64,000 nucleotides of DNA from Candidatus Nomurabacteria bacterium (GTDB taxonomy: Bacteria > Patescibacteriota > Minisyncoccia > Phycocordibacterales > UBA9973). The translations under genes and the position numbers were made by a program. The notes beneath the pieces are model-generated. The model did not search any database and had not been told where the DNA came from. It saw nothing but the letters and a program-made list of their open reading frames with translations. Shown one piece after another: positions 20,567 to 63,757 of this stretch. Where the stretch lies: contig CALRFQ010000001.1 of the NCBI GenBank assembly GCA_943356675.1, forward strand, positions 4,147 through 68,146, given 5' to 3'. Within the stretch, counting starts at the first letter, position 1; the number at the start of each line of letters is the position of its first letter.

Positions 20567-21571
20567 TTATTTTATAATTTCTTCTACTGCTTTTGTAATA
20601 CCCTTTACACCCATACCGTAGTGCTCTATAAGCTCTTCTGGCCTACCAGACTGGCCGAATAGGTCTTGCACTCCGATGAATGCCATCTTTGTAGGGTAAA
20701 CTTTTGCTAAGTATTCAGCAATTGCAGAGCCCATTCCTCCGGCCACTTGGTGCTCTTCTACTGTCACAATTTTATTGGTCTCTTTTGCAAGAGCAAGAAT
20801 CGCTTCTTCGTCGAGTGGTTTGATGGTTGCTAGGTTTAGAACCTTCACCTTAATTCCCTTCTCTTCTAAATCCTTCGCAGTTTTAATAGCATTGTGAAGT
20901 AGCGGCCCGCAAGCTACTATTCCAACGTCTGCATTTCCCTCTGGTGCAAATACTGTTTGCGCCTTTCCAATTTCAAATGGAGTATCTAGAGTAGTCATTA
21001 TAGGAGTCTTCTCACGAGCGAGGCGAAGGTATGTAGGCTCTTTCGTCTTCGCACATGCTATTGTCGCCTTCTTGGCCTCAATAGCATCACAAGGATAAAT
21101 AACAGTCATATTTGGAAGCACACGCGTAATAGCGATGTCTTCAATAGCTTGGTGGGTTCCACCATCAGGTCCTACAGATACACCTGCATGTGAGCCTACG
21201 ATTACTACCTTGCTATTATTGTAACAGCAAGTAGTACGTATCTGCTCCCAGCTACGTCCTGGAGAGAACATTGCATACGAAGATGTAAATGGAACTTTGC
21301 CCATTGCCGCCATTCCAGCTGCAACTGTGACTAGGTTCTGCTCAGAGATTCCCACTTGCACGAAACGCTCTGGGAATTTCTCTGCGAAAATATTCATCAT
21401 TGTAGATCCTGTAAGATCTGCACAAAGTGCAACCACATTCTTATCCGCCTCACCAGCTGCGAGTAGTCCCTCACCGAAACCTTTTCTTGTAGGCACTTGC
21501 TCTACATCCTGATCAAACATTTTGGTATTTAGTTTTAGGTTTGAATTAAGCATATTATTTTCCTTCTTCAA
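20567..21571 (-). CDS. transketolase, C-terminal subunit (pyrimidine-binding + C-terminal domains)
   Basis: 334 aa; split-transketolase arrangement, 17-nt overlap with the N-terminal subunit gene. Confidence 0.85.
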   Translation of the reverse strand: MKKENNMLNSNLKLNTKMFDQDVEQVPTRKGFGEGLLAAGEADKNVVALCADLTGSTMMNIFAEKFPERFVQVGISEQNLVTVAAGMAAMGKVPFTSSYAMFSPGRSWEQIRTTCCYNNSKVVIVGSHAGVSVGPDGGTHQAIEDIAITRVLPNMTVIYPCDAIEAKKATIACAKTKEPTYLRLAREKTPIMTTLDTPFEIGKAQTVFAPEGNADVGIVACGPLLHNAIKTAKDLEEKGIKVKVLNLATIKPLDEEAILALAKETNKIVTVEEHQVAGGMGSAIAEYLAKVYPTKMAFIGVQDLFGQSGRPEELIEHYGMGVKGITKAVEEIIK

Positions 21572-22448
21572 CTAGTTTGTAAAATGTTTTAAGTTCTAGG
21601 AGTGCGACTTCTGTTTGCTTATCTTTAGCGACTTTATCTGTCGGTCCAGATCCTGGAGGATTCCCATGCCAACGATAATCGTATTCAAATGGTGTGACAC
21701 CTTTACTTGCGATTGTGCGTGCAATGATACATGAAGGCTTGTCTGGAATAGCTTTTGCGCGGTTTATTGCATTGTTTATATCTTCTACATTGTGCCCATC
21801 TATTTCTTCTGCATGCCAGCCGAATTCCTCATACTTCTTCGCCATGTCACCAAGGGGGAGTACGTCTTCAGTATTTCCATCAATCTGGATATGGTTGCGG
21901 TCAACTATAGCAATTAAGTTTCCTAATTTTTCTTTACCAGCGAGGAGAACTGCTTCCCATATATTGCCTTCATCATGCTCACCGTCTCCCATCACGCAGT
22001 AGAAGAACTTGCCAGAATTTCTGCCATGATCCATATTCTCAGCGATAGCCATACCGACTGCTTGTGAGAGTCCAGAACCAAGTGGCCCTGAAGAAGTCTC
22101 TACCATTGGTAGGAATTCGCGGTGAGGGTGGCCTTGTAGTCTTGATCCTAATTTTCTGAGAGTTAATAGTTCTTCAACAGGAAAATATCCAGAGTGCGCC
22201 ATTGCAGCATACATAACAGGGCAAATGTGGCCTGCGGAAAGTATAAAGCGATCACGACCCTCCCAGAAAGGCTCCGATGGATTGTGATTTAATTGATGAA
22301 AATAAAGCACAGCAAATACATCTGCCATATCAAGCGGTCCGGCAGTGTGGCCACTCTTCGCCTCTGTAAGCATTTCAATGATACTGATGCGGATTTTTGT
22401 CGCTAGTAATTTGAGTGTTTTGATTTTTTCGTCTGTAAGATTTTCCAT
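21555..22448 (-). CDS. transketolase, N-terminal subunit (TPP-binding)
   Basis: 297 aa; GHxxxxL...GDG(E)xxEG TPP-binding motif (VMGDGEHDEGNIWEA). Confidence 0.85.
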   Translation of the reverse strand: MENLTDEKIKTLKLLATKIRISIIEMLTEAKSGHTAGPLDMADVFAVLYFHQLNHNPSEPFWEGRDRFILSAGHICPVMYAAMAHSGYFPVEELLTLRKLGSRLQGHPHREFLPMVETSSGPLGSGLSQAVGMAIAENMDHGRNSGKFFYCVMGDGEHDEGNIWEAVLLAGKEKLGNLIAIVDRNHIQIDGNTEDVLPLGDMAKKYEEFGWHAEEIDGHNVEDINNAINRAKAIPDKPSCIIARTIASKGVTPFEYDYRWHGNPPGSGPTDKVAKDKQTEVALLELKTFYKLVEEGK

Positions 22449-22557
22449 CCCGTTAGAAGCAGATCGCGATCACTCGCTTCTTACTTGTTAAGTTATTAAT
22501 ATTTATTATATTTGTTTTCATGTTGTTTAATTTCGCGATCGCGGCTTCTAACGGGAT
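22447..22557. repeat. 111-bp intercistronic inverted-repeat element, family A copy 1 (rpe / tkt)
   Basis: Terminal IRs ATCCCGTTAGAAGC (22447..22460) and GCTTCTAACGGGAT (22544..22557), AT-rich centre. One arm contains the rpe stop codon and the other ends in the AT of the tkt start codon. 46 nt are identical to copy 2. Confidence 0.8.
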
Positions 22558-31210: not shown

Positions 31211-31319
31211 CCCGTTAGAAGCAGATCGCGATCACTCGCTTCTTACTTATTAAACTATTAATTTTAATTTTATAAATTTTCATCATGTGTGTTTACGTGA
31301 TCGTGGCTTCTAATGGGAT
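31209..31319. repeat. 111-bp intercistronic inverted-repeat element, family A copy 2 (scpA / scpB)
   Basis: ATCCCGTTAGAAGC at 31209..31222 and GCTTCTAATGGGAT at 31306..31319. Positions 31205..31250 are identical to 22443..22488. The distal arm lies inside the scpA 3' coding end. Confidence 0.8.
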
Positions 31320-36168: not shown

Positions 36169-36287
36169 TCCCGTTAGAGATGTGCTGTTCATATGTTTGT
36201 TAAATGTTAAATATAGATTATAGTGTATATATTAATTATTAGTTAATAAGAAACGGAAGTCTAAAGACTTCCTATCTCTAACGGGAT
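36169..36287. repeat. 119-bp intercistronic inverted-repeat element, family A copy 3 (dnaB / recR)
   Basis: TCCCGTTAGAGAT at 36169..36181 and ATCTCTAACGGGAT at 36274..36287 ending in the AT of the recR ATG. Inner hairpin GGAAGTC-TAAA-GACTTCC. Interior carries TTGTTA-N16-TATAGT. Confidence 0.8.
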
Positions 36288-36906
36288 GGACCCGATAAAT
36301 ATTCTCGCAGAAAAATTTAAGGAATTCCCAGGTATTGGTGAACGCCAAGCAAAGCGTTTCGTGTATTTTCTGCTTCATAAAAATCCTAGCTTCGTAAAAA
36401 TACTCGGCGAGGCAATCATTTCTATTAAAAGCCAGATTGCCGAGTGTGAATCTTGCCACATATTCTTTCAAATAAAACCTCATCAGGATAAGCTCTGTGA
36501 GACTTGCGCAAATCCTCAAACTGATCAATCTTCCCTACTTATCGTCGAGAAGGATGCAGATATGGAGACCATAAAGCGCACGAAGACATATAAAGGATTA
36601 TATTTTGTACTTGGTGGTCTTGTACCTATAGTGACTAAGGATACTCCTACTTTTGTTCGCACAAACGAACTTCAAGCTGTTGTAAAAGACCGTATTAAGA
36701 ATAAAGTTCTAAAGGAAATTATATTAGGTCTTTCTATTAATCCTCACGGTGAACATACAGATTTATATCTACGTGAATTACTCCACCCACTTATAGAAAA
36801 CACAAATGTTAGAATTGTATCTTTAGGTAAAGGCCTCTCCACAGGCACTGAGCTCGAATACTCCGACTCCGAAACTATCAAAAACGCTCTCAAAAACCGC
36901 GGCTAA
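36286..36906 (+). CDS. recR: recombination protein RecR
   Basis: 206 aa; HhH FPGIGERQAKR, C4 zinc finger CESCH...CETC, Toprim LIVEKDADME. Confidence 0.85.
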   Translation: MDPINILAEKFKEFPGIGERQAKRFVYFLLHKNPSFVKILGEAIISIKSQIAECESCHIFFQIKPHQDKLCETCANPQTDQSSLLIVEKDADMETIKRTKTYKGLYFVLGGLVPIVTKDTPTFVRTNELQAVVKDRIKNKVLKEIILGLSINPHGEHTDLYLRELLHPLIENTNVRIVSLGKGLSTGTELEYSDSETIKNALKNRG

Positions 36907-36910
36907 TCCC

Positions 36911-36930
36911 CGCCTAGGTCGGACCTAGGC
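36911..36930. repeat. GC-rich palindromic hairpin CGCCTAGGTC-G-GACCTAGGC (family B copy 1) right after the recR stop
   Basis: 9-10-bp perfect arms; near-identical copy at 47446..47466. Confidence 0.7.
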
Positions 36931-42770: not shown

Positions 42771-43661
42771 ATGGTAGATTCAATAATTAATACAAAGAAA
42801 ATTGAAGACGCAGATGTAGTGATACTCTCTGCAGCATATGAGAAGACTGCATCTTCTAGGAAAGGCACAGCGACTGGCCCAAAAGCAATTATTAAAATGC
42901 TCACCAGCAAGCTTGAGCTTTTCGATCGTAACTACAAGAAGAATGTATCAGAGTTTGTAAAAATTGCCGAGAAAGATTCTGGAAATATTAGCGTCCTAAC
43001 TCCAAAGAAAGCTCTAGATAAAATTACAGCGGAATCAAGAAAGATTTTAGAGAAAAATAAATTCGTTTTCCTTCTTGGTGGCGAGCACTCAGTATCTCTC
43101 GGATTGCTAACTGCACTTAAAGAAAATTGGGATCCAAAGGATGTGACAGTGTTACAAATAGACGCGCACTGCGACCTACGCAATGACGACTCTGATTATA
43201 ACGATGACCCTACAAATTTGGCCCATTCTTGCGTTCTAAGACGTGTAAACGAGCTTGGCTACCCTCTCGTACAAGTTGGAATTCGCACATACTACAAGGG
43301 AGAATATGAATACTTCTCAAATCCAAAGAATAATGTAAAAACATTTGAATGGGGCGCTGGTAAAAAGGTGCCATCGGTGGACGAAGTCTTGAAATCTATA
43401 AAGACAAAGAATGTATATATCACTATAGACGTGGACGGCTTCGACCCTGCCTATATGCCAGGCACTGGCACACCAGTGCAAGGAGGCCTAGAGTGGTGGT
43501 ACGGAGTAGAACTCATCGAGAAAGTAATAAAATCAAAGAACTTAATCGGCGCAGATATCGTAGAAGTGGCTCCACAAAAAGAATCAGTCCTTACTGAATA
43601 CGGCGCCGCTCAGCTTCTTTACACTATGATTGCTCACAAATTTCGAAATAAACTTAAATAG
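42771..43661 (+). CDS. speB: agmatinase (ureohydrolase family)
   Basis: 296 aa; GGEHS, DAHCD, IDVDGFDPAYMPGTGTP Mn-binding motifs. Confidence 0.8.
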   Translation: MVDSIINTKKIEDADVVILSAAYEKTASSRKGTATGPKAIIKMLTSKLELFDRNYKKNVSEFVKIAEKDSGNISVLTPKKALDKITAESRKILEKNKFVFLLGGEHSVSLGLLTALKENWDPKDVTVLQIDAHCDLRNDDSDYNDDPTNLAHSCVLRRVNELGYPLVQVGIRTYYKGEYEYFSNPKNNVKTFEWGAGKKVPSVDEVLKSIKTKNVYITIDVDGFDPAYMPGTGTPVQGGLEWWYGVELIEKVIKSKNLIGADIVEVAPQKESVLTEYGAAQLLYTMIAHKFRNKLK

Positions 43662-43667
43662 AAATAA

Positions 43668-43707
43668 TAAAATCCCACATGTCATACATGTGGGATTTTA
43701 TTATTTT
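43668..43707. terminator. bidirectional rho-independent terminator
   Basis: AAAATCCCACATGT-CATA-CATGTGGGATTTT perfect 11-bp stem. Confidence 0.7.
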
Positions 43708-43710
43708 ATA

Positions 43711-44730
43711 TTAAGCTGAGTATTTTTCGATTAGTTTATTTGCTTCTGCGGGATTTGCTTTCATTTCAAGTAGTGCTGTGAGCATAAGAGGCACAACGAT
43801 TGTGGCATCGGACTCCACGACGAACATTGGAGTGTCTTTTGTGAGCTTGTCCCAAGTGATCTTTTCATTTGGAGTAGCACCTGAGTATGATCCGTATGAA
43901 GTAGTTGAGTCTGAAATCTGACAGAAGTATGCCCAAGGCTTAACTTCTTGCTCCATATCGTATTTAAGTGATGGCACTACGCATATTGGGAAGTCTCCAG
44001 CGATACCTCCACCGATTTGGAAGAAGCCAATTCCCTCTCCCTCAGAAAGCTTTTGGTATTGGTCATAAAATTCTCCCATGTATTCGATACCACTCTTTGC
44101 GATAGAAGCTGATGCATCTCCATGCTTTACGTGAGATGCGAAAATGTTTCCAAATGTTGAGTCTTCATATCCTGGAACTACTATTGGTATGTTGTTCTCA
44201 GCTGCAGCAAGTAGCCAGCATTCTTCTGCTTTACCTTCATGCTTATCTTTATCGATAGCTTGAATCAAGTCATAGAAGTACTCATGCCAGAATTTGCGAG
44301 TGCCATTCTTTGTAGCTTCTTCCCAAACTGGCACAATGTGTTTCTCCACAGCGCGGAAAGCTTCATCTTCAGGGATACTTGTGTCTGTAACGCGGCGCAT
44401 ACGATTCTCGAGTATCTTTGTGTCATCCTCTTTTGTGAAGTATCTGTAATCTGGAAAATCTTTGTATGAATCATGAGCAACGAGGCGGAAAAGTGATTCC
44501 TCAAGGTTCGCACCTGTGACAGACATACCACTGATAAGTCCTGCGCGGATAGCTGGGGCAAGCACGATACCAAGCTGTGCAGAAGACATAGCTCCAGCTA
44601 CCGCCCAAAACATCTTGCCTCCTTTTTCTGCATGGCGCCAGTAAGCGATAAGCGCATCGCGAGTAGCACGAGCATTGAAGTTCTTGTAATTTTTTAATAT
44701 AAATTCTAATGTGTTTAAATTATTTTGCAT
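43711..44730 (-). CDS. deoxyhypusine synthase-like protein (possible homospermidine/spermidine-forming aminobutyl transferase)
   Basis: 339 aa; N-terminal Rossmann region MFWAVAGAMSSAQLG...MSVTGANLEESLF aligns with the DHS-family TSNLISSGLR...VTTAGGVEED. Confidence 0.65.
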   Translation of the reverse strand: MQNNLNTLEFILKNYKNFNARATRDALIAYWRHAEKGGKMFWAVAGAMSSAQLGIVLAPAIRAGLISGMSVTGANLEESLFRLVAHDSYKDFPDYRYFTKEDDTKILENRMRRVTDTSIPEDEAFRAVEKHIVPVWEEATKNGTRKFWHEYFYDLIQAIDKDKHEGKAEECWLLAAAENNIPIVVPGYEDSTFGNIFASHVKHGDASASIAKSGIEYMGEFYDQYQKLSEGEGIGFFQIGGGIAGDFPICVVPSLKYDMEQEVKPWAYFCQISDSTTSYGSYSGATPNEKITWDKLTKDTPMFVVESDATIVVPLMLTALLEMKANPAEANKLIEKYSA

Positions 44731-44833
44731 CCCGTGTGAAATTTATTAATTAAGTAATATTGTAATTATAGCGTAATTTAACTTTTTGTACATTCCAAAT
44801 AGATTTATAGTTATTATAAATTTCTATCGGGAT
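44729..44833. repeat. 105-bp intercistronic inverted-repeat element, degenerate family A copy 4 (decarboxylase / DHS-like)
   Basis: ATCCCGTGTGAAATTTAT (44729..44746) and ATAAATTTCTATCGGGAT (44816..44833). One arm starts with the AT of the DHS-like ATG and the other ends at the decarboxylase stop codon. Confidence 0.6.
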
Positions 44834-46212
44834 TACCAGCCGAAGTTCTTACCCACCTCATCTGGAGTTTCTCTCTTACGTGCTACTACGATGTGTCCAT
44901 TCTCAGCCACGATCTTAAGTGGTGAAGAAAGCATACAGTGGTGTGCAGCGAGTGGGTCTTGGTATGCACCAGTATCGAGCACAGCTATATACATAGGCTC
45001 TCCATCATTCATATCGTAGTCTGGAAGTGTTACAGAGCCATGCACTCCTGTATAAATATCATCAGAATCACAAGATGACCCTGCTAGCCAAACATCCTGT
45101 AATTTATCATCGCGCTTATTATTTAGTGGAATCACAGACCATTTCTGCCCGATAGCCCAAGTATCGAGAAGGTCATTCATGAAGCTACCATCTATCACAT
45201 ACCACTTCTTGGCGTCAGCCTTTTTGCTTGAGATAAGTTTACTATCAATAATTTTAAAGATTGTGATTTGCGCTGGTGCTACTATGTAGCGGCCCCACTC
45301 ACACACGAGGTTTGGATGTGGCATTCCGCGCTTCTCAGACTCCTTCACAATAAGTGTGAAAATCTTATCCATCAATTTATCCACTGGGTAGCTACGATTG
45401 CGAGTGTAAGGGATAGGCATTCCTCCACCAATGTCGAGAGTATCAAGAGATGGATTCTTTTCTTTCACCTTGAAGTACACATCGAGTGCGTATTTTATCG
45501 GGCCGATCACATCAGAAAGCTTCTCAATCTGAGAGCCTATGTGGTAGTGAATTATTTTCAAATTCTTAAAGCTTCCCATATCAATGATCTCCTTTGCAGA
45601 AAATCCGAAGCGGTCTATCGGCTTGTTCCAGTACGAAGCAGCCTTCACTGGCATGTCTAGGCGGATACCCACATCATACTTTGAGTGCTGAAGGAATTTG
45701 AGCTCATTTGGGCCTTCAATAAGTGGGAAGATTTTCACACCTTTGTGCTGTAGATCGTCGATGAGGTTTATGTATTTGTCTGTCTTAGGACCTGAGCAGA
45801 GTATGCGGATGTTTGGGTTGAAAGATTCTTGCTCAAGCATCTTCTTCACGAGCCAGAGGTCGTTGAAAGATGAAGTCTCGAGATGAGCACCTTCAGATAC
45901 CATAGCCATAACCACTTCTTTATTTTGGTTCACCTTCATTGGGTAGTGGTAGAAGAACTTACCTTTATAACCTACTTTCTTTGAAAGTTGGAATGACAAG
46001 TCTAGGAAGTCCTCAATTCTTTCCTCAATAATGAATGGAAAAAGGATCTCAAGAGATGTGCCCATCTTCTCAGCTAAATAACGAATGTTGTAAATATTAT
46101 TTCCTTCTTTTACTACAAGGTCACCGTCTTTATTAAAGTCGAAATATTGTGTATTCCAATCTTTAGATCCGAGCTTCCATAATTTTCGGGAAGCAGATAC
46201 ATTTTTGTGCAT
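44833..46212 (-). CDS. PLP-dependent Orn/Lys/Arg decarboxylase (fold III), likely arginine decarboxylase
   Basis: 459 aa; HIGSQ and GGG-loop motifs; neighbour of agmatinase. Confidence 0.65.
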   Translation of the reverse strand: MHKNVSASRKLWKLGSKDWNTQYFDFNKDGDLVVKEGNNIYNIRYLAEKMGTSLEILFPFIIEERIEDFLDLSFQLSKKVGYKGKFFYHYPMKVNQNKEVVMAMVSEGAHLETSSFNDLWLVKKMLEQESFNPNIRILCSGPKTDKYINLIDDLQHKGVKIFPLIEGPNELKFLQHSKYDVGIRLDMPVKAASYWNKPIDRFGFSAKEIIDMGSFKNLKIIHYHIGSQIEKLSDVIGPIKYALDVYFKVKEKNPSLDTLDIGGGMPIPYTRNRSYPVDKLMDKIFTLIVKESEKRGMPHPNLVCEWGRYIVAPAQITIFKIIDSKLISSKKADAKKWYVIDGSFMNDLLDTWAIGQKWSVIPLNNKRDDKLQDVWLAGSSCDSDDIYTGVHGSVTLPDYDMNDGEPMYIAVLDTGAYQDPLAAHHCMLSSPLKIVAENGHIVVARKRETPDEVGKNFGW

Positions 46213-47348: not shown

Positions 47349-47445
47349 AAATATATTGGTTTTTGATTTTAGAACTATAATATACTATTCTCACCAAAAC
47401 ACAATATGTGGATAAAGTAAAACACCCTTTCGGGTGCCTTATCTC

Positions 47446-47466
47446 CGCCTAGGTCGGACCTAGGCG
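47446..47466. repeat. GC-rich palindromic hairpin CGCCTAGGTC-G-GACCTAGGCG (family B copy 2) right after the dnaJ stop
   Basis: Perfect 10-bp arms; followed on the minus strand by a GCACCC-GAAA-GGGTG-TTTT terminator (47411..47436). Confidence 0.7.
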
Positions 47467-47467
47467 C

Positions 47468-48586
47468 TTATATTCCCTCTTTTTTAAGATCTTCGAGGAG
47501 TTCTTTTGATTTCTTTGAGAGCTTCGTTGGCATCTTTATTTGGATGCGGAGAATGATGTCGCCACGGCGAGACATACTGCCACCTTGAGGCACGCCTTTG
47601 CCTCGCACACGTAGGAGCTCACCATGATTCACACCTTCAGGGATTGTGACGTCCATATCACCATCAAGAGTCTTCAGTTTATATTCAAAACCGAGGATTG
47701 CATCTGTGAGCTTGATCGGCAAATCCATAATCAAGTTTGAACCATCGCGTCTGTAAATTGAATGCGGCTTCACATTTACTTTTATGTATAGGTCGCCAGT
47801 TTGGCCATGAGAGATTGCTTCACCTTTGCCAGTCATTCTTATCATCTCGCCATTATTTATGCCTGCTGGGATTGCGATGCTAATGTCTTCCTGCTTATTG
47901 TGCACGCCTTTGCCTTTACACTCACTGCATTTCTCATTTGGAATTTTCCCTGCGCCGTGACAATGCTCACACACACGAGCAGTTTCGAACGTGCCGAGGA
48001 TTGAACGCTTCATCTCACGCACCTGGCCTTTTCCATTACAAGTTTTGCAAGTGTCCATCTTGGTGCCAGCTTTCGCTCCGCTACCACTACAAGTATCGCA
48101 TGTGGACTGCTTACTAATGAGCACAGAGCGCTTCACGCCGAAAATTGACTCCTCAAAGGAAATATCTATCTCTGTAGAAATATCGCGTCCACGGGCCTGC
48201 TGGCTTCTTCCACGGCCACCCATGCCTCCACCTCCGAAAAATTCTCCGAAGATATCGCCAATGTCGCCCATATCAAACTCCACTCCGCCTCCTTGCTGGA
48301 AGCCAGAGAAATCAAATCCTCCGAAGCCTCCTGCACCTTGATTGAATCCGCCGTATCCTTGACCTCCGCCCATATTTGGGCCGGCACTTCCGAATCTATC
48401 GTACTGAGCACGCTTGCCATCGTCCGATAGGGTCTGATAAGCCTCGTTCACTTCTTTGAACTTCGAATCATCACCCTTATTTTTATCAGGATGGTATTTA
48501 TGCGCGAGTTTATGATAGGCCTTTTTCATTTCGTCCTTACTCGCACCTTTATTTACACCCAATATTTCGTAGTAATCTTTTGCCAT
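47468..48586 (-). CDS. dnaJ: chaperone DnaJ
   Basis: 372 aa; J domain with HPD, G/F-rich linker, four CxxCxGxG repeats. Confidence 0.9.
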
Positions 48587-48828
48587 ATTTTAATTATACT
48601 TATTTATACTTAAATTGACAAATTATTATTTTAATGTTAATTTTAATATAAAATTAATTTTATATTTTTATGTGGTTTAAAACAAAATCCCCGAAAAAGT
48701 CTTCTCCGGAATCCTATGATTTAGTAGAGTACGGAATGGTTAAGCTTGAAATAATAGTTACCCTTGCTTTGATATTAATTTTAGGATCTGCATTCGGAAT
48801 CTATGTTCATTTCAATCCTTAAGTACAA

Positions 48829-48869
48829 TAAAAGCGGTCTCTGTCTGAAAACAGTACCGCTTTTATTTT
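48829..48869 (-). terminator. rho-independent terminator downstream of dnaK
   Basis: GCGGTaCTG-TTTTCAGA-CAGaGACCGC then TTTTATT (minus strand). Confidence 0.45.
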
Positions 48870-48872
48870 TAC

Positions 48873-50765
48873 CTATTTCTGTTCTCCACTCTCTTTTGCT
48901 TCAGCATCCTTTATTTCTTCAGCTTGAGGTTCTGCAGTTGTGCCGGCTTCAGGAGTAGCGCCGGCTTTTTGCATTGCTTCGCCGATTTTAGACATTTCTG
49001 ATGAAAGATCTTCCACTGCTTTCTTGATAGCATCGATATCTGTGCCACCATTTGCTACACGCACCGCTGCAATTTTCTCTTCCACACTAGCCTTCAAACT
49101 TGCATCCACTTTGTCGCCATATTCTTTGATAGATTTCTCAGCAGAGAAGATTATCATTTCTGCAGAATTCTTTTCATCTACGAATGCTTTCTTCTTTGCA
49201 TCTTCATCAGCGTGAATTTCTGCATCCTGTTGCATTTTCTTGATGTCGGCATCAGTAAGTCCTGAGCCGGCTTCAATGCGGATTGTCTGCTTCTTGCCAC
49301 TTGTCTTTTCCATTGCAGTCACATTTAAGATACCGTTTGCATCCACATCAAATGTAACTTCTACTTGTGGCATTCCGCGTGGTGATGGTGTAATACCATC
49401 GAGGATGAATTTACCGAGAGATTTGTTGTCGCTCGCCATTGGGCGCTCACCTTGAGTGATATGAATTTCCACACTTGTCTGATTGTCCGCAGCTGTAGAG
49501 AAAATTTGAGACTTTGAACTTGGGATAGTTGTATTTCTTTCAACTAGCTTCGTTGCCACACCTCCAAGAGTTTCAATTCCTAGTGATAGCGGAATCACAT
49601 CAAGCAAGAGCACATCCTTCACATCACCTTGTAGCACACCTGCTTGCACTGCAGCTCCGAGAGCCACCACTTCATCAGGATTGATTGAGCGATTTGGCTC
49701 TTTGCCGTTGAATAATTTCTTCACAGCTTCCACTATCGCTGGCATTCTTGTCTGACCTCCTACCATTATGATTTCATTTATTTCACCGATCTTAAATGGA
49801 GATGCGTCCATAGCGCGCTTTGTGATCTCTATAGATTGATCGATAAATTCTTGTGAGAGTGATTCAAGCTGAGCACGAGTCATCTTCTGCACTAGGTGCT
49901 CTGGACCATTTGCACCGCTTGTAATGAATGGAATATTCACTTCTGTTTCTGGAGTTGTAGAAAGCTCAATCTTTGCCTTTTCAGCTGCTTCGTCTAAGCG
50001 CTGTAGTGCAAGAGGATCTTTACTGATATCAAGGCCAGTAGACTTCTTGAATTCTTCTGCAAGCCAGTTGATAATCTTCTGGTCGATATCGCGGCCTCCC
50101 ATGTGTGAGTCACCATCTGTGGACTTCACTTCAATCACATCGTTTGAAACTTCAAGGACAGACACATCAAATGTACCTCCACCGAAGTCGTACACCACAA
50201 TCTTTTCTTCTTTCTTACTATCAAATCCGTATGCGAGAGCGGCTGCTGTAGGCTCATTGATGATTCTCTTCACATCAAGTCCGGCTATAAGCCCTGCATC
50301 CTTTGTGGCCTTTCTTTGTGAGTCGTTGAAGTACGCAGGCACTGTGATGATAGCCTCGGTAATTTTCTCACCAAGCTTCGCTTCCACGTCTGCCTTAATC
50401 TTCGCAAGAATCATTGCAGAAATTTCTTCCGGGCGCTTGTATTCGCCACCGATAGCTACTTCCACTCCGCCATCCTTACCAGCCTGAATTTTAAATGGAG
50501 CAGTCTTCTGTGATTTCTGAATTTCTGGATCTTCGTAGCGGTGACCCATGAATCTCTTGATACCGTAGATAGTATTCTGCGGATTTGTAACTGCCTGACG
50601 CTTCGCAAGAAGGCCCACCAAGCGGTCGCCATTCTTTCCGATCGCCACAATAGAAGGTGTGGTTCTTGCACCCTCAATGTTCTCGATTATCTTTGGCTGT
50701 CCGCCTTCGATTATCGCTACTGCACTATTTGTTGTACCCAAGTCTATACCAATTATTTTACTCAT
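48873..50765 (-). CDS. dnaK: chaperone DnaK (Hsp70)
   Basis: 630 aa; [18 protein letters not shown] signatures. Confidence 0.95.
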
Positions 50766-50816
50766 ATGTTTATAAAGCGTAGCAAATTATTTTATGAAAA
50801 ATGTCTGGCCTGCCTG

Positions 50817-50832
50817 CGATTCAGCAGAATCG
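50817..50832. promoter_or_regulatory. candidate operator palindrome CGATTC-AGCA-GAATCG in the dnaK / paaX-like divergent region
   Basis: GC-rich palindrome embedded in a 50-bp GC-rich patch (50803..50855) in otherwise AT-rich spacer; half-site resembles the PaaX box TGATTC. Confidence 0.3.
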
Positions 50833-50972
50833 GCTGGACAGGAGATCCGAGGACTTTTTTCAGAATATAATTTGTGTAGCTTAATTACCTATTAATGTTT
50901 TAATAATAATGTATTTTACATGTATTTAGTGGTCACGAAATACTTGTATAATTAGAGTATATATTATAAGAT

Positions 50973-51536
50973 ATGTGTATGTCAAATAAGAGTGATAATT
51001 CTAAGAAAATCATTAAAATACTTAGCCAAAAGCCAGCTGTTGCAGTGAGTGAAATTACAAAGAGTCTGTCCCAGGAAATTGCGCAAGAACAGTTCTTGCG
51101 CCAAAGGAAGAATTCGTATGCAATAACTCGTTCAATAAAAGGCCTAGAAGAGGCAGGATTGATAGAGAATATATCATCAGGCCAAGGATTCTTCGCTCGC
51201 CTCACAAAGGAAGGCAAGAAAAAGGCTATGAGCATTAAGCTTGAGAGCGAGGATAGCCTCGTAAATACTACTTGGGACGGATACTGGCGTGTGATACTCC
51301 TAGACCTCCCAGAAAGTCGTAAGAGTGAGCGTGAATCTCTCCGCTACCTACTCAAGAAAGCCGGCTTCGTGTGCCTAAAGAATTCTGCATGGATCTCCCC
51401 TTACCCATTTGAGCACCTATTCACAAATATTAAAAAAGATCTCGGCCTTACAACCGAGCTTATGATACTAGTCACTCGCCATGTAGACGAAATGACGGAA
51501 TCTTCCCTCTTTGATCTCTTTGGATTTCATAAATAA
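50973..51536 (+). CDS. PaaX-family transcriptional regulator (wHTH + PaaX C-terminal domain)
   Basis: 187 aa; WDGYWRVILLDLPESRKSERESLRYLLKKAGFVCLKNSAWISP matches the PaaX-family core W.G.W..v.f..pe..r..R..lr..L...GF..l...vWv.P. Confidence 0.55.
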   Translation: MCMSNKSDNSKKIIKILSQKPAVAVSEITKSLSQEIAQEQFLRQRKNSYAITRSIKGLEEAGLIENISSGQGFFARLTKEGKKKAMSIKLESEDSLVNTTWDGYWRVILLDLPESRKSERESLRYLLKKAGFVCLKNSAWISPYPFEHLFTNIKKDLGLTTELMILVTRHVDEMTESSLFDLFGFHK

Positions 51537-51539
51537 TAG

Positions 51540-51579
51540 TTGGCTGATATTTTTAACATATGGTAAAAATATCAGCCAA
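51540..51579. terminator. perfect 16-bp AT-rich hairpin between paaX-like and grpE (convergent); candidate bidirectional terminator
   Basis: TTGGCTGATATTTTTA-ACATATGG-TAAAAATATCAGCCAA. Confidence 0.4.
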
Positions 51580-51587
51580 AAATAAAT

Positions 51588-52202
51588 TTACTTTCTATAT
51601 TCAAAAACTACCACGCGGGCTGGGCGGATTATTTTTTCGCCGATTTTGTAGCCGGATTGAGTGACAGATGAGATGGTGTGATCTTTAGATTCATCAGAAG
51701 TTTCTGCTGTGCTGATGCTCTCATGAAGATTTGGATCGAATTTAATTCCAGTCTGGTTTATTGGAGCCACGTTATTGTCCTCTAGAACGCGGTAGAATTG
51801 CGAGCGAATATACTCTATTCCGTTTCTCCAATTCGCATCAACTTTCTCCCAAGCTTCCTTGTTGCCCATTGCCATATCGAAGCTATCTAGGACTGGAAGT
51901 AAGTCCTCTATCATTGCTGTAGTTACATGAGTACGGAGCTCCTTATATTTCTCTCCTTCACTCTTTTGAAGGTTCACATAGTCAGCCTTCGCTCTCTGCC
52001 ATCCTGTGAGGTACTCTTCCTTCTCTTTGCGAGTAAGCTTTAGGTCTGCACGGAGCTTCTTCACCACATCTTTCGTAGGAAGTGCGTCACCATCTTCGTT
52101 GCTTTCTTCATACACCAAATCCTGCTCCGGAATATCTACATGGAGGGCTTCAAGAATTTCTTGGTCAACATCTTTAGTTGTATCTTCATCATTCGTATTC
52201 AT
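51588..52202 (-). CDS. grpE: nucleotide exchange factor GrpE
   Basis: 204 aa; coiled-coil N-terminus and GrpE beta-domain (GYKIGEKIIRPARVVV). Confidence 0.85.
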   Translation of the reverse strand: MNTNDEDTTKDVDQEILEALHVDIPEQDLVYEESNEDGDALPTKDVVKKLRADLKLTRKEKEEYLTGWQRAKADYVNLQKSEGEKYKELRTHVTTAMIEDLLPVLDSFDMAMGNKEAWEKVDANWRNGIEYIRSQFYRVLEDNNVAPINQTGIKFDPNLHESISTAETSDESKDHTISSVTQSGYKIGEKIIRPARVVVFEYRK

Positions 52203-52217
52203 ACGCGCATTATAGCA
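52200..52217 (-). promoter_or_regulatory. extended -10 promoter fused to the grpE start (TGCTATAAT-GCGCGT-ATG), leaderless
   Basis: Minus-strand reading of 52217..52200; lies between the rpsI terminator and the grpE ATG. Confidence 0.5.
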
Positions 52218-63175: not shown

Positions 63176-63757
63176 ATGGGACGAGCTAATATACTATTTT
63201 CCATATTCCTATTCATTATCTTAATAATTGGCGCAAGAACAGTTCTTGCGCAAACTTATGATTCAAAATCATTTACAGGCACCTGGATACGAGTATCTAC
63301 CACTGGTTCCAAATTATATTTAATGAAAGATCAAAAAGTTGTTAGAACTTATCCTATTTCAATTTCTAAACACGGCATAGGTAACATTTCTGGCAGTAAT
63401 AAAACTCCACTTGGGTTACACGAGATTAAAAAGAAAATTGGTAGCAAATTACCAATCAATTCTATAATCAAGGGTGGTGTCTCAACTGGTAAGACTGCTA
63501 AAATTATAAGTGAACCGATATCAGTAAACACCGACTTAGTCACTACCAGAGTTATGTGGCTCTCAGGGCTTGAACCTGGAAAAAATAAAGGTGGAAAGGT
63601 AGATAGCTACAATCGCTTCATATACATTCACGGCACACCAGAAGAAGGCCTCATAGGCCAGCCAGCATCCCACGGTTGTATCCGAATGTACAACAAGGAT
63701 GTAATTGAACTCTTCAACCTCGTCTCTATAAATACAAAAGTTTTAATTGAAAAATAA
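63176..63757 (+). CDS. L,D-transpeptidase (YkuD domain) with signal peptide
   Basis: 193 aa; catalytic HGT...SHGCIRM motif. Confidence 0.75.
   Translation: MGRANILFSIFLFIILIIGARTVLAQTYDSKSFTGTWIRVSTTGSKLYLMKDQKVVRTYPISISKHGIGNISGSNKTPLGLHEIKKKIGSKLPINSIIKGGVSTGKTAKIISEPISVNTDLVTTRVMWLSGLEPGKNKGGKVDSYNRFIYIHGTPEEGLIGQPASHGCIRMYNKDVIELFNLVSINTKVLIEK

What the first reader, a model, noticed from the sequence alone, without database searches (positions are those of the whole stretch)
50766..51536. Heat-shock locus without HrcA/CIRCE: PaaX-family regulator and GATTC palindrome between grpE and dnaK
No CIRCE inverted repeat (TTAGCACTC-N9-GAGTGCTAA) is present upstream of grpE, dnaK or dnaJ, and no hrcA is nearby. 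Instead, a PaaX-like winged-helix regulator gene is inserted divergently between grpE and dnaK. The shared spacer contains a conspicuously GC-rich patch (50803..50855) with CGATTC-AGCA-GAATCG, whose half-site matches the PaaX box TGATTC. On the dnaK mRNA strand the same patch can fold into a hairpin of about 13 bp. This is a candidate alternative chaperone-regulation circuit: a repressor operator, or an RNA thermometer-like leader.
Basis: partly seen in the sequence, partly recalled or inferred. Interest (0 to 1): 0.6.

Follow-up and report, generated by a model that had tools for sequence, protein, structure and literature searches.

The report
Candidate dnaK repressor and operator in Patescibacteria

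Summary
The sequence features are real. There is no CIRCE or hrcA in the 64-kb window. A 185-aa wHTH + Cas2-like (PaaX_M) protein lies divergent from dnaK. CGATTC-AGCA-GAATCG (50817-50832) caps a long hairpin (50772-50885; z about -4).

That hairpin is not the conserved element. It is unique in the window and absent from the closest relative. It is shared with only three of about 200 related loci, and many relatives have a 24-48-nt unstructured dnaK leader.

What is conserved is a palindrome, consensus TTGACAAGTATTTCGYG-RY-CRCGAAATACTTGTCAA (window 50913-50952). It is present in 79/81 genome loci and 82 metagenome loci, always next to dnaK and/or the regulator and never elsewhere. Its arms keep one consensus without covarying, which fits protein half-sites. 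It overlaps near-consensus promoters for dnaK and for a leaderless regulator mRNA. Homologs down to 29% identity are still paired with grpE/dnaK and a related palindrome.

Best reading: an autoregulated repressor dedicated to the dnaK operon, analogous to HspR/HAIR or RheA but built on a truncated PaaX scaffold. I found no description of it in the searchable literature. The signal it senses, and whether hrcA is absent genome-wide, remain untested.

The parts
50913..50952 (.). Conserved palindromic operator candidate. Core arms are 50917-50931 and 50934-50948 (TACATGTATTTAGTG-GT-CACGAAATACTTGTA); the centre lies between 50932 and 50933. Family consensus: TTGACAAGTATTTCGYG-RY-CRCGAAATACTTGTCAA.
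   Evidence: Inverted repeat I2, 19-nt arms, 84% complementary. Unique in the window. Present in 79/81 genome sequences and 82 metagenome loci, always beside dnaK and/or the regulator. The arms do not covary.
50979..51536 (+). [quoted passage not shown] The true start is most likely ATG 50979 rather than 50973.
   Evidence: Pfam PF20803 72.9 bits. AF2 model pLDDT 89.3. Foldseek top hit is PaaX 8a39, E 3.7e-5 over 182 columns. Homolog alignment starts at MS.K. There is a -10 hexamer 6 nt upstream of the ATG.
50944..50972 (+). Predicted regulator promoter P_reg: -35 TTGTAT 50944-50949 (the outer end of the right operator arm), 17-nt spacer, -10 TAAGAT 50967-50972, then 6 nt to ATG 50979 (leaderless mRNA).
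   Evidence: Consensus TTGTMA-17-TAnnAT-6-ATG across relatives. The distance from the -10 hexamer to the ATG is 6 nt in 57/78 loci. Leaderless TGnTATAAT-N6-ATG promoters are the norm in this window.
50956..50985 (-). Predicted dnaK promoter P1: -35 TTGACA 50985-50980 (overlaps ATG-TCA-A of the regulator), 18-nt spacer, -10 TATACT 50961-50956. The predicted start site is about 50949, inside the right operator arm.
   Evidence: 11/12 match in the promoter scan. In the 118 unique loci selected for TGTC[AT]A 30-60 nt from the palindrome centre, 116 read TTGACA and 114 have a -10-like hexamer 16-18 nt from it (TATACT 62, TATAAT 27, TATATT 23). TGTCAA is kept even in the clade where it lies upstream of the start codon used.
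50772..50885 (-). Long imperfect hairpin in the dnaK 5' leader. A U5 run follows on the mRNA strand and a T6 run on the other strand. It is lineage-specific.
   Evidence: z -4.0 / -4.3. Outer stem shared with L032, L064 and L065, with 3 compensatory pairs in L032. Inner motif GTCTGG..CCGAGGAC also lies 3' of dnaK in L009. No Rfam match. No other copy in the window.
48873..50765 (-). dnaK (630 aa), the predicted regulated gene.
48830..48860 (-). Intrinsic terminator-like hairpin plus T-run directly after dnaK. In this organism dnaK therefore looks monocistronic.
   Evidence: Read from the sequence.
47468..48621 (-). dnaJ (47468-48586) with its own leaderless-type promoter: TTGTCA 48621-48616, 17 nt, TATAAT 48598-48593, 6 nt, ATG 48586. 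No operator.
   Evidence: No PWM site there.
51588..52217 (-). grpE (51588-52202) with its own TGCTATAAT promoter (52209-52217) 6 nt from the ATG. No operator.
51540..51579 (.). Hairpin between the convergent 3' ends of the regulator gene and grpE (a bidirectional terminator candidate).
   Evidence: Terminator scan, 16-bp stem.

Best explanation
The 185-aa protein is a truncated PaaX-type DNA-binding protein: a winged HTH plus a Cas2-like dimerisation/sensor domain, without the effector-binding C-terminal domain. It most likely acts as an autoregulated repressor dedicated to dnaK. A dimer, or a dimer of dimers, binds the conserved palindrome of about 40 bp at 50913-50952.

The palindrome's right outer end is the -35 box of the regulator's own leaderless promoter. 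Its right arm also contains the start site of the near-consensus dnaK promoter P1. Occupancy would therefore shut both divergent, interdigitated promoters. In most relatives, but not in this window, the left outer end is also the -35 of a second dnaK promoter, P2.

In this organism grpE and dnaJ have separate, operator-free promoters. In more distant lineages the same operator precedes a grpE-dnaK(-dnaJ) operon.

Shown: the domain architecture, the conserved synteny, the operator conservation and its exclusivity, and the promoter-like geometry. Inferred: binding, repression, and the inducing signal. The signal is most plausibly heat or unfolded protein, sensed either by intrinsic lability or by titration through DnaK, as for HspR.

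The GC-rich GATTC hairpin is a separate, lineage-specific structured insertion in the long dnaK leader. At most it modulates termination or mRNA stability.
For: Synteny:
- In 80 genome loci (regulator 60-89% identical) dnaK lies divergently upstream in essentially every locus with enough flank.
- Of 120 metagenome loci retrieved by the DNA motif, 82 carry the full palindrome. Of these, 67 have both genes within 2 kb, 15 have one gene (contig ends), and none has neither.
- Distant homologs are still divergent from dnaK or grpE-dnaK and still have a related palindrome: 41, 40, 36, 34 and 29% identity.

Operator:
- 79/81 sequences have the site, and no second site occurs in the window or in about 0.8 Mb of flanks.
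- The arms share one consensus but do not covary; for example only 50/106 pairs are Watson-Crick at position 9.

Promoters:
- P1 is TTGACA, 16-18 nt, then TATACT/TATAAT/TATATT, in 114/118 unique loci.
- P_reg is TTGTMA-17-TAnnAT-6-ATG.
- P2 is present in 95/118 unique loci.

Protein:
- PaaX_M hit at E 2.4e-20.
- AF2 pLDDT 89.3, with a wHTH plus a beta-alpha-beta-beta-alpha-beta fold.
- Foldseek best hits are the PaaX-type structures 8a39, 3kfw and 3l09, and Cas2 5zyf matches the C-terminal half.

Context: no CIRCE or hrcA in the window.
Against: - No binding, expression or start-site data exist; everything is comparative.
- The regulon test used a stringent pattern, so degenerate sites (for example upstream of groESL, which is absent from all sequence held) would be missed.
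- The palindrome is also the predicted 5' end of the dnaK mRNA, so an RNA-level role cannot be excluded.
- One locus (L031) has the regulator without palindrome or dnaK nearby.
- hrcA/CIRCE or sigma-32 may exist elsewhere in the genome and co-regulate.
- Nothing shows that heat is the signal.
- The TTGACA count is partly circular, because loci were selected for TGTCAA within 30-60 nt of the palindrome centre.
Confidence: 0.7

Rival explanations
1. One reading: the CGATTC-N4-GAATCG palindrome in the GC patch is the operator of the PaaX-like protein.
For: The palindrome exists and one hexamer resembles the E. coli PaaX half-site TGATTC.
Against: It is unique, and 15/100 shuffles give a match with 1 mismatch or fewer. 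It is absent from the closest relative L001 and from almost all of about 200 loci; even the three loci sharing the hairpin lack this tip. The E. coli box has N27 spacing, not N4. A different, universally conserved palindrome sits at the promoters.
Confidence: 0.04
2. The long hairpin is an RNA thermometer, or an attenuator, that controls dnaK translation or transcription in this lineage, on top of the repressor.
For: The fold is far better than shuffles. The outer stem is kept by three compensatory pairs in L032. A U5 run follows it on the mRNA strand. In an organism that is otherwise largely leaderless and lacks Shine-Dalgarno sequences, dnaK has an unusual leader of about 184 nt. GC-rich hairpins of other sequence occur in 27/95 related leaders.
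Against: It is predicted to stay folded from 10 to 55 C; P(unpaired) of its 3' arm moves only from 0.23 to 0.29. It ends 12 nt upstream of the AUG and masks no SD. Only four sequences share it. The inner motif also occurs 3' of dnaK in L009. There is no Rfam family. The terminator scan did not call it.
Confidence: 0.2
3. The hairpin is a neutral or selfish GC-rich palindromic insertion (MITE-like, or a relic intercistronic/terminator hairpin) with no regulatory role.
For: It has imperfect terminal inverted arms of about 30 nt. In L032 and L064 the same element follows an extra small ORF, and in L009 its core follows dnaK. The window holds other repeated GC palindromes, including one inside two ORFs. 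The dnaK-regulator spacer is highly plastic: 24 nt to 1.7 kb, with assorted inserted ORFs.
Against: There is only one copy in 64 kb. The compensatory changes suggest the stem is maintained.
Confidence: 0.45
4. The conserved palindrome works mainly as RNA, as a 5'-terminal stem-loop that sets dnaK mRNA stability, rather than as a protein-binding DNA operator.
For: The predicted P1 start puts the whole palindrome at the 5' end of the transcript. From general knowledge, CIRCE has such a dual role in Bacillus.
Against: There is no covariation, and about half of the sequences have mismatches at several stem positions, while each arm stays close to the same consensus. In most relatives promoter P2 starts downstream of it. 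It also overlaps the regulator's own -35.
Confidence: 0.1

Closest known systems
PaaX (E. coli / Pseudomonas phenylacetate catabolon repressor; TIGR02277, PDB 8a39)
   Same: N-terminal winged HTH followed by the Cas2-like central domain (PF20803). It is the best structural match. PaaX is also autoregulated and uses inverted half-sites.
   Different: 185 aa against about 305-316 aa; the C-terminal domain that binds phenylacetyl-CoA is missing. It scores 31.6 bits against the 264.55 cutoff. No paa genes occur in any of about 200 loci. The operator sequence and spacing differ (TGATTC-N27-GAATCA in E. coli).
HspR / HAIR (Streptomyces, Mycobacterium, Helicobacter)
   Same: A repressor dedicated to the dnaK operon, encoded at the dnaK locus, autoregulated, with an inverted-repeat operator at the promoter.
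   Different: HspR is a MerR-family protein encoded as the last gene of the dnaK operon, not divergently. HAIR is unrelated in sequence. HspR's use of DnaK as co-repressor is established; here that is only a hypothesis.
HrcA / CIRCE
   Same: A palindromic operator at or just downstream of the start site of chaperone operons; the element is also transcribed into the mRNA 5' end.
   Different: Different protein family. No CIRCE (up to 3 mismatches) in the window or in 1.5 Mb of related loci, and no HrcA domain in the window. HrcA normally also controls groESL; here only dnaK-linked sites were found.
RheA-hsp18 (Streptomyces albus) and CtsR
   Same: A small autoregulated repressor that needs no small-molecule ligand. 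For RheA the gene is divergent from its single heat-shock target and shares one operator region.
   Different: Unrelated folds and operators. Their thermosensing is demonstrated experimentally; here it is not.

Membership tests
PaaX family (TIGR02277 equivalog / Pfam PaaX, PaaX_M, PaaX_C) | Central Cas2-like domain PaaX_M (PF20803) | tested here: met
   72.9 bits against cutoff 24, residues 99-177. AF2 gives a beta-alpha-beta-beta-alpha-beta fold and Foldseek also hits Cas2 5zyf.
PaaX family (TIGR02277 equivalog / Pfam PaaX, PaaX_M, PaaX_C) | [quoted passage not shown] | tested here: met
PaaX family (TIGR02277 equivalog / Pfam PaaX, PaaX_M, PaaX_C) | C-terminal helical effector (phenylacetyl-CoA) domain, PaaX_C | tested here: not met
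   The protein ends right after PaaX_M. There is no PaaX_C hit, and TIGR02277 aligns only profile positions 37-138 of 279.
PaaX family (TIGR02277 equivalog / Pfam PaaX, PaaX_M, PaaX_C) | Equivalog trusted score | tested here: not met
   31.6 bits against 264.55.
PaaX family (TIGR02277 equivalog / Pfam PaaX, PaaX_M, PaaX_C) | Linkage to paa (phenylacetate) catabolic genes | tested here: not met
   Neighbours are dnaK, grpE, dnaJ and rpsI-rplM in about 200 loci.
PaaX family (TIGR02277 equivalog / Pfam PaaX, PaaX_M, PaaX_C) | Operator TGATTC-N27-GAATCA | tested here: not met
   The literature box is in PMC9493321. The window has CGATTC-N4-GAATCG, which is not conserved. The conserved palindrome has a different sequence.
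HrcA/CIRCE heat-shock regulon | CIRCE TTAGCACTC-N9-GAGTGCTAA upstream of dnaK/groE operons | tested here: not met
   0 matches with up to 3 mismatches in the window, and none in 1.5 Mb of related loci.
HrcA/CIRCE heat-shock regulon | hrcA gene in the genome | tested here: inconclusive
   No HrcA Pfam domain in any of the window ORFs of 186 aa or more that were scanned. The rest of the genome is not available.
Dedicated autoregulated heat-shock repressor with shared divergent operator (functional class: HspR, RheA) | Regulator gene conserved next to the chaperone target | tested here: met
Dedicated autoregulated heat-shock repressor with shared divergent operator (functional class: HspR, RheA) | Conserved inverted repeat overlapping both promoters | tested here: met
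   This is promoter-consensus geometry only; no start sites are mapped.
Dedicated autoregulated heat-shock repressor with shared divergent operator (functional class: HspR, RheA) | Protein binds the repeat and represses; derepression by heat or unfolded protein | not testable with these tools
   Needs EMSA or footprinting, reporters or transcriptomics.
RNA thermometer (ROSE / fourU type) | Structure masks the SD or AUG and melts in the physiological range | tested here: not met
   The hairpin ends 12 nt upstream of the AUG. There is no SD (6/61 genes have an SD-like motif). It is predicted to remain folded from 10 to 55 C. No Rfam hit.

The most novel reading that the evidence does not exclude
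Mini-PaaX is the proteostasis sensor for the dnaK operon across Patescibacteria and takes the role that HrcA, HspR or sigma-32 play elsewhere. Its extremely conserved Cas2-like domain would be the sensor module, either as a DnaK client/co-repressor interface or as an intrinsically heat-labile dimer. This would close a minimal feedback loop of one repressor, one operator and one chaperone in genomes with very few regulators.
Probability: 0.3. Interest if true: 0.8.

Novelty: new variant of a known kind. Interest (0 to 1): 0.62.

Why it matters
Almost nothing is known about gene regulation in the Candidate Phyla Radiation, which is a large share of bacterial diversity and mostly uncultivated. 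This finding gives a concrete, testable repressor-operator-promoter triplet for a core stress gene. It is conserved across hundreds of MAGs and built on a protein scaffold (truncated PaaX, wHTH + Cas2-like) that has not been linked to chaperone control in any paper I could find. It also corrects an annotation trap. These proteins are labelled 'phenylacetic acid degradation operon negative regulatory protein PaaX' in public records, although no relative has paa genes nearby. Finally, the operator sequence can serve as a probe for the dnaK locus in Patescibacteria metagenomes.

Tried and rejected
- **Second operator sites.** A 44-nt PWM scan of the window and about 0.8 Mb of flanks found none. 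One metagenome scan with CAAGTWTTTMGYGRNCRCNRAA gave 82 true palindromes, all dnaK-linked, and 38 one-arm chance hits in unrelated contigs. Many of those contigs are high-GC, and most of the low-GC hits checked lie inside ORFs; L112 is a HIP1-like (GCGATCGC) site next to a histidine-kinase-like ORF.
- **Other heat-shock genes.** The groESL regulon question therefore could not be addressed, and because the queries were from memory this negative is weak.
- **CIRCE scan.** Only non-palindromic 4-mismatch hits.
- **RNA families.** Rfam gave nothing for the hairpin or the palindrome, on the region at E up to 1 and on the whole window at gathering thresholds.
- **Protein databases.** PDB sequence search gave nothing significant. 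PADLOC and PHROGs gave only marginal wHTH noise.
- **First AF2 model.** Built from 26 close homologs, it was poor (pLDDT 63.6). It was replaced by a 60-sequence alignment (pLDDT 89.3).
- **Hairpin as a repeat family.** No other copy in the window.
- **Second dnaK promoter P2 in the window.** Absent here (ATGTAA..CATTAA), although present in 95/118 unique relatives.
- **Proteostasis theme among ORFs inserted between operator and dnaK.** Only L001 has a trypsin-like peptidase. Others are a P-loop kinase, a weak DUF3467 match, an LMW phosphatase or unknowns.
- **Literature.** Searches for PaaX with dnaK, Patescibacteria, Parcubacteria or Cas2, and for hrcA with CPR, found no relevant paper.

Full report
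**Observation**

The window is a low-GC (about 39%) segment whose closest relatives are Patescibacteria MAGs labelled Paceibacterota or Nomurabacteria.

- The gene order on the minus strand is rpoA-rplQ-rplM-rpsI-grpE, then a plus-strand ORF, then dnaK and dnaJ on the minus strand.
- The plus-strand ORF (50973/50979-51536) hits Pfam PaaX_M (PF20803, 72.9 bits). It reaches only 31.6 bits on the PaaX equivalog TIGR02277, whose cutoff is 264.55.
- CGATTC-AGCA-GAATCG is at 50817-50832.
- It is the tip of an imperfect hairpin of about 114 nt (50772-50885) that folds far better than shuffled sequence on either strand: z = -4.0 and -4.3, with 0/200 shuffles as good.
- There is no CIRCE with up to 3 mismatches and no HrcA domain in any scanned ORF of 186 aa or more.

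The hexamer palindrome alone is not statistically remarkable, because 15/100 shuffles give a match with 1 mismatch or fewer.

**Comparative genomics moves the focus**

The regulator has more than 2000 close homologs of 170-200 aa. Where a source names the organism, the names are nearly all Patescibacteria-group taxa.

- A scan of one genome per species returned 80 loci with the regulator 60-89% identical. Wherever the flank suffices, dnaK lies divergently upstream. grpE follows at a variable distance and is itself preceded by rpsI-rplM.
- The dnaK-regulator spacers share none of the GC patch. They do share a palindrome immediately upstream of the regulator, with consensus TTGACAAGTATTTCGYG-RY-CRCGAAATACTTGTCAA. 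The window copy is at 50913-50952.
- A PWM built from 70 sites finds the element in 79 of 81 sequences. L017 lacks upstream flank. L031 is a genuine exception, with another ORF upstream.
- The PWM finds no second site in the window or in about 0.8 Mb of flanks.

**Independent retrieval by DNA**

- 82 carry the full palindrome. Of these, 67 have both dnaK and the regulator within 2 kb, 15 have one of them (contig ends), and none has neither. Regulators in this set are 44-79% identical to the window's.
- The other 38 are one-arm matches in unrelated contigs. Many are high-GC, and most of the low-GC ones checked lie inside ORFs.
- If a second consensus-quality site existed per genome, for example at groESL, it should have appeared. 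It did not. Degenerate sites cannot be excluded.

**DNA operator or RNA stem**

Across 106 distinct sites the two arms keep the same consensus but vary independently.

- Position 9 is Watson-Crick in only 50/106 sites and position 5 in 54/106.
- The Y/R pair at position 3 shows all four combinations.
- This is the signature of two protein half-sites, not of a selected stem. Each half-site has two conserved blocks, CAAGT and TTTCGYG.

**Promoter geometry**

- This organism is essentially free of Shine-Dalgarno sequences: 6/61 genes have a weak SD-like motif. Many first genes, including grpE and dnaJ, carry TGnTATAAT 6-7 nt from the ATG, which implies leaderless mRNAs.
- The regulator fits this pattern. 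Its -35 TTGTAT (50944-50949) is the outer end of the right arm; 17 nt further is the -10 TAAGAT (50967-50972), and 6 nt beyond that is ATG 50979. The 6-nt distance holds in 57/78 relatives.
- On the other strand, TTGACA (50985-50980, overlapping ATG-TCA-A) followed 18 nt later by TATACT (50961-50956) scores 11/12.
- Among the 118 unique relatives selected for a TGTC[AT]A 30-60 nt from the palindrome centre, 116 read TTGACA and 114 have a -10-like hexamer 16-18 nt from it. In the clade whose start codon lies downstream of TGTCAA, the promoter is a perfect TTGACA-17-TATAAT. The TTGACA count is therefore partly circular.
- The predicted dnaK start (about 50949) lies inside the right arm.
- In 95/118 relatives the left arm end (TTGTCA/TTGCTA/TTGCAA) is also followed by TATAAT at 16-17 nt. 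This is a second dnaK promoter, P2. The window lacks it.
- One bound repressor would therefore occlude the regulator's -35, P2's -35 where present, and the P1 start. All of this is consensus geometry; no start sites are mapped.

**The protein**

- A 60-sequence alignment gave an AF2 model with pLDDT 89.3. It shows a winged HTH (H3-17, H23-35, H42-58, wing 62-75), a linker helix, then a beta-alpha-beta-beta-alpha-beta domain.
- The protein stops where PaaX's effector domain would begin. It has the PaaX core but fails several defining tests for PaaX proper: the C-terminal domain, the trusted score, paa linkage and the operator.

**Depth of the association**

- A search of 1.8 billion cluster representatives finds 2687 clusters at E up to 1e-3 but only 12 at E up to 1e-30. 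The dnaK-linked group is therefore a tight orthologous set inside a large superfamily of mini-PaaX proteins of about 180-200 aa.
- Contexts of distant members:
  - P0125 (41% identity): divergent from grpE-dnaK-dnaJ.
  - P0128 (40%): divergent from dnaK.
  - P0134 (34%): divergent from grpE-PBP-dnaK-dnaJ.
  - P0138 (36%): divergent from grpE.
  - P0142 (29%): divergent from grpE-dnaK.
- Each of these has a recognisably related palindrome (TTGACAA.TATT...).
- P0149 (27-30%) sits next to a T4SS-like gene instead, so it is a paralog.

- It has no other copy in the window and no Rfam match.
- It is absent from L001, whose dnaK is 98% identical. L001 instead has a trypsin-like peptidase and a small ORF between the operator and dnaK.
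- Only L032, L064 and L065 share its outer stem, with three compensatory pairs in L032. Its inner motif also follows the dnaK stop codon in L009.
- Among 114 relatives, the distance from palindrome to dnaK ATG is 24-48 nt with no structure in 23. It carries GC-rich patches of unrelated sequence in 27/95 leaders of 320 nt or less, and exceeds 320 nt (extra ORFs) in 19.
- In silico the hairpin stays folded from 10 to 55 C and ends 12 nt before the AUG.
- It is therefore not the operator and is a poor thermometer candidate. It is either a neutral palindromic insertion or a lineage-specific modulator of termination or stability. It is followed by U5 on the mRNA strand and T6 on the other strand.

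**Comparison and novelty**

Functionally this looks like HspR/HAIR or RheA-hsp18: a dedicated, autoregulated repressor at the chaperone locus. In operator placement it resembles HrcA/CIRCE. The protein scaffold is a truncated PaaX. Searches of the held literature found no paper connecting PaaX-like proteins with dnaK or Patescibacteria, and none on hrcA in CPR. Public records call these proteins PaaX or hypothetical. I rate it a new variant of a known kind.

**Open points**

- Binding and repression are not shown.
- The inducing signal is unknown.
- Whether hrcA, CIRCE or rpoH exist elsewhere in these genomes is untested.
- Whether groESL carries a degenerate site is untested.

Noticed in passing
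window 22449-22555, 31211-31317, 36170-36285: Three intergenic elements of about 108-115 nt, bounded by inverted CCCGTTAGA...TCTAACGGG. Two copies are 84% identical. Each abuts the ATG of a neighbouring gene and holds internal GC hairpins (for example AGAAGC..GCTTCT). This may be a MITE-like repeat or a structured leader; there is no Rfam hit.
   Followed up: partly
window 51081-51101 and 63231-63251; L001 about 5106: The same perfect 21-bp palindrome GCGCAAGAAC-A-GTTCTTGCGC lies inside two unrelated ORFs. One is the variable loop between HTH helices of the regulator; the other is the N-terminal region of a YkuD L,D-transpeptidase. L001's regulator has a variant with compensatory changes (GCGCAAGGAC-T-GTCCTTGCGC). 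These look like in-frame palindromic insertions, reminiscent of Rickettsia palindromic elements.
   Followed up: partly
whole window (61 gene starts): The organism almost lacks Shine-Dalgarno motifs (6/61). Many operon-first genes have TGnTATAAT 6-7 nt before the ATG, which implies widespread leaderless mRNAs. dnaK, with a leader of about 184 nt, is the exception.
   Followed up: partly
window 36903-36930 and 47438-47465: A repeated GC-rich hairpin, CT(A/T)ATC(C/T)CCGCCTAGGTCGGACCTAGGC, lies at the 3' ends of recR-like 36286-36906 and of dnaJ. It is a shared terminator-type element.
   Followed up: no
L001 3541-5006 and other loci (L004, L128, L159, L032, L064, L194, L151): The space between the operator and dnaK is a hotspot for inserted minus-strand ORFs that would be co-transcribed with dnaK. 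These are a trypsin-like peptidase plus a small membrane protein (L001), a P-loop kinase (L004/L128/L159), an 88-aa protein with a weak DUF3467 match (L032/L064/L128/L194), and an LMW phosphatase (L151).
   Followed up: partly
related loci (95 of 118 unique); absent at window 50880-50916: Most relatives have a second dnaK promoter, P2 (TTGTCA/TTGCTA-16/17-TATAAT), whose -35 is the left end of the palindrome. The window and the short-leader clade have lost it and rely on P1 only.
   Followed up: yes
L031 640-870: This is the one locus where the regulator homolog (66-67% identity) follows another ORF in the same orientation, with no palindrome and no dnaK in the 2.3-kb contig. It may be a rearrangement, a second copy or a chimeric contig.
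   Followed up: partly
window 42771-46212: A cluster of an arginase/agmatinase-family gene (+), deoxyhypusine-synthase-like DS (-) and an Orn/Arg/DAP decarboxylase (-). It is probably a polyamine (homospermidine-type) module in a reduced genome.
   Followed up: no
window 20567-22448: Transketolase is split into separate N-terminal (21555-22448) and C-terminal (20567-21571) ORFs that overlap by 17 nt.
   Followed up: no
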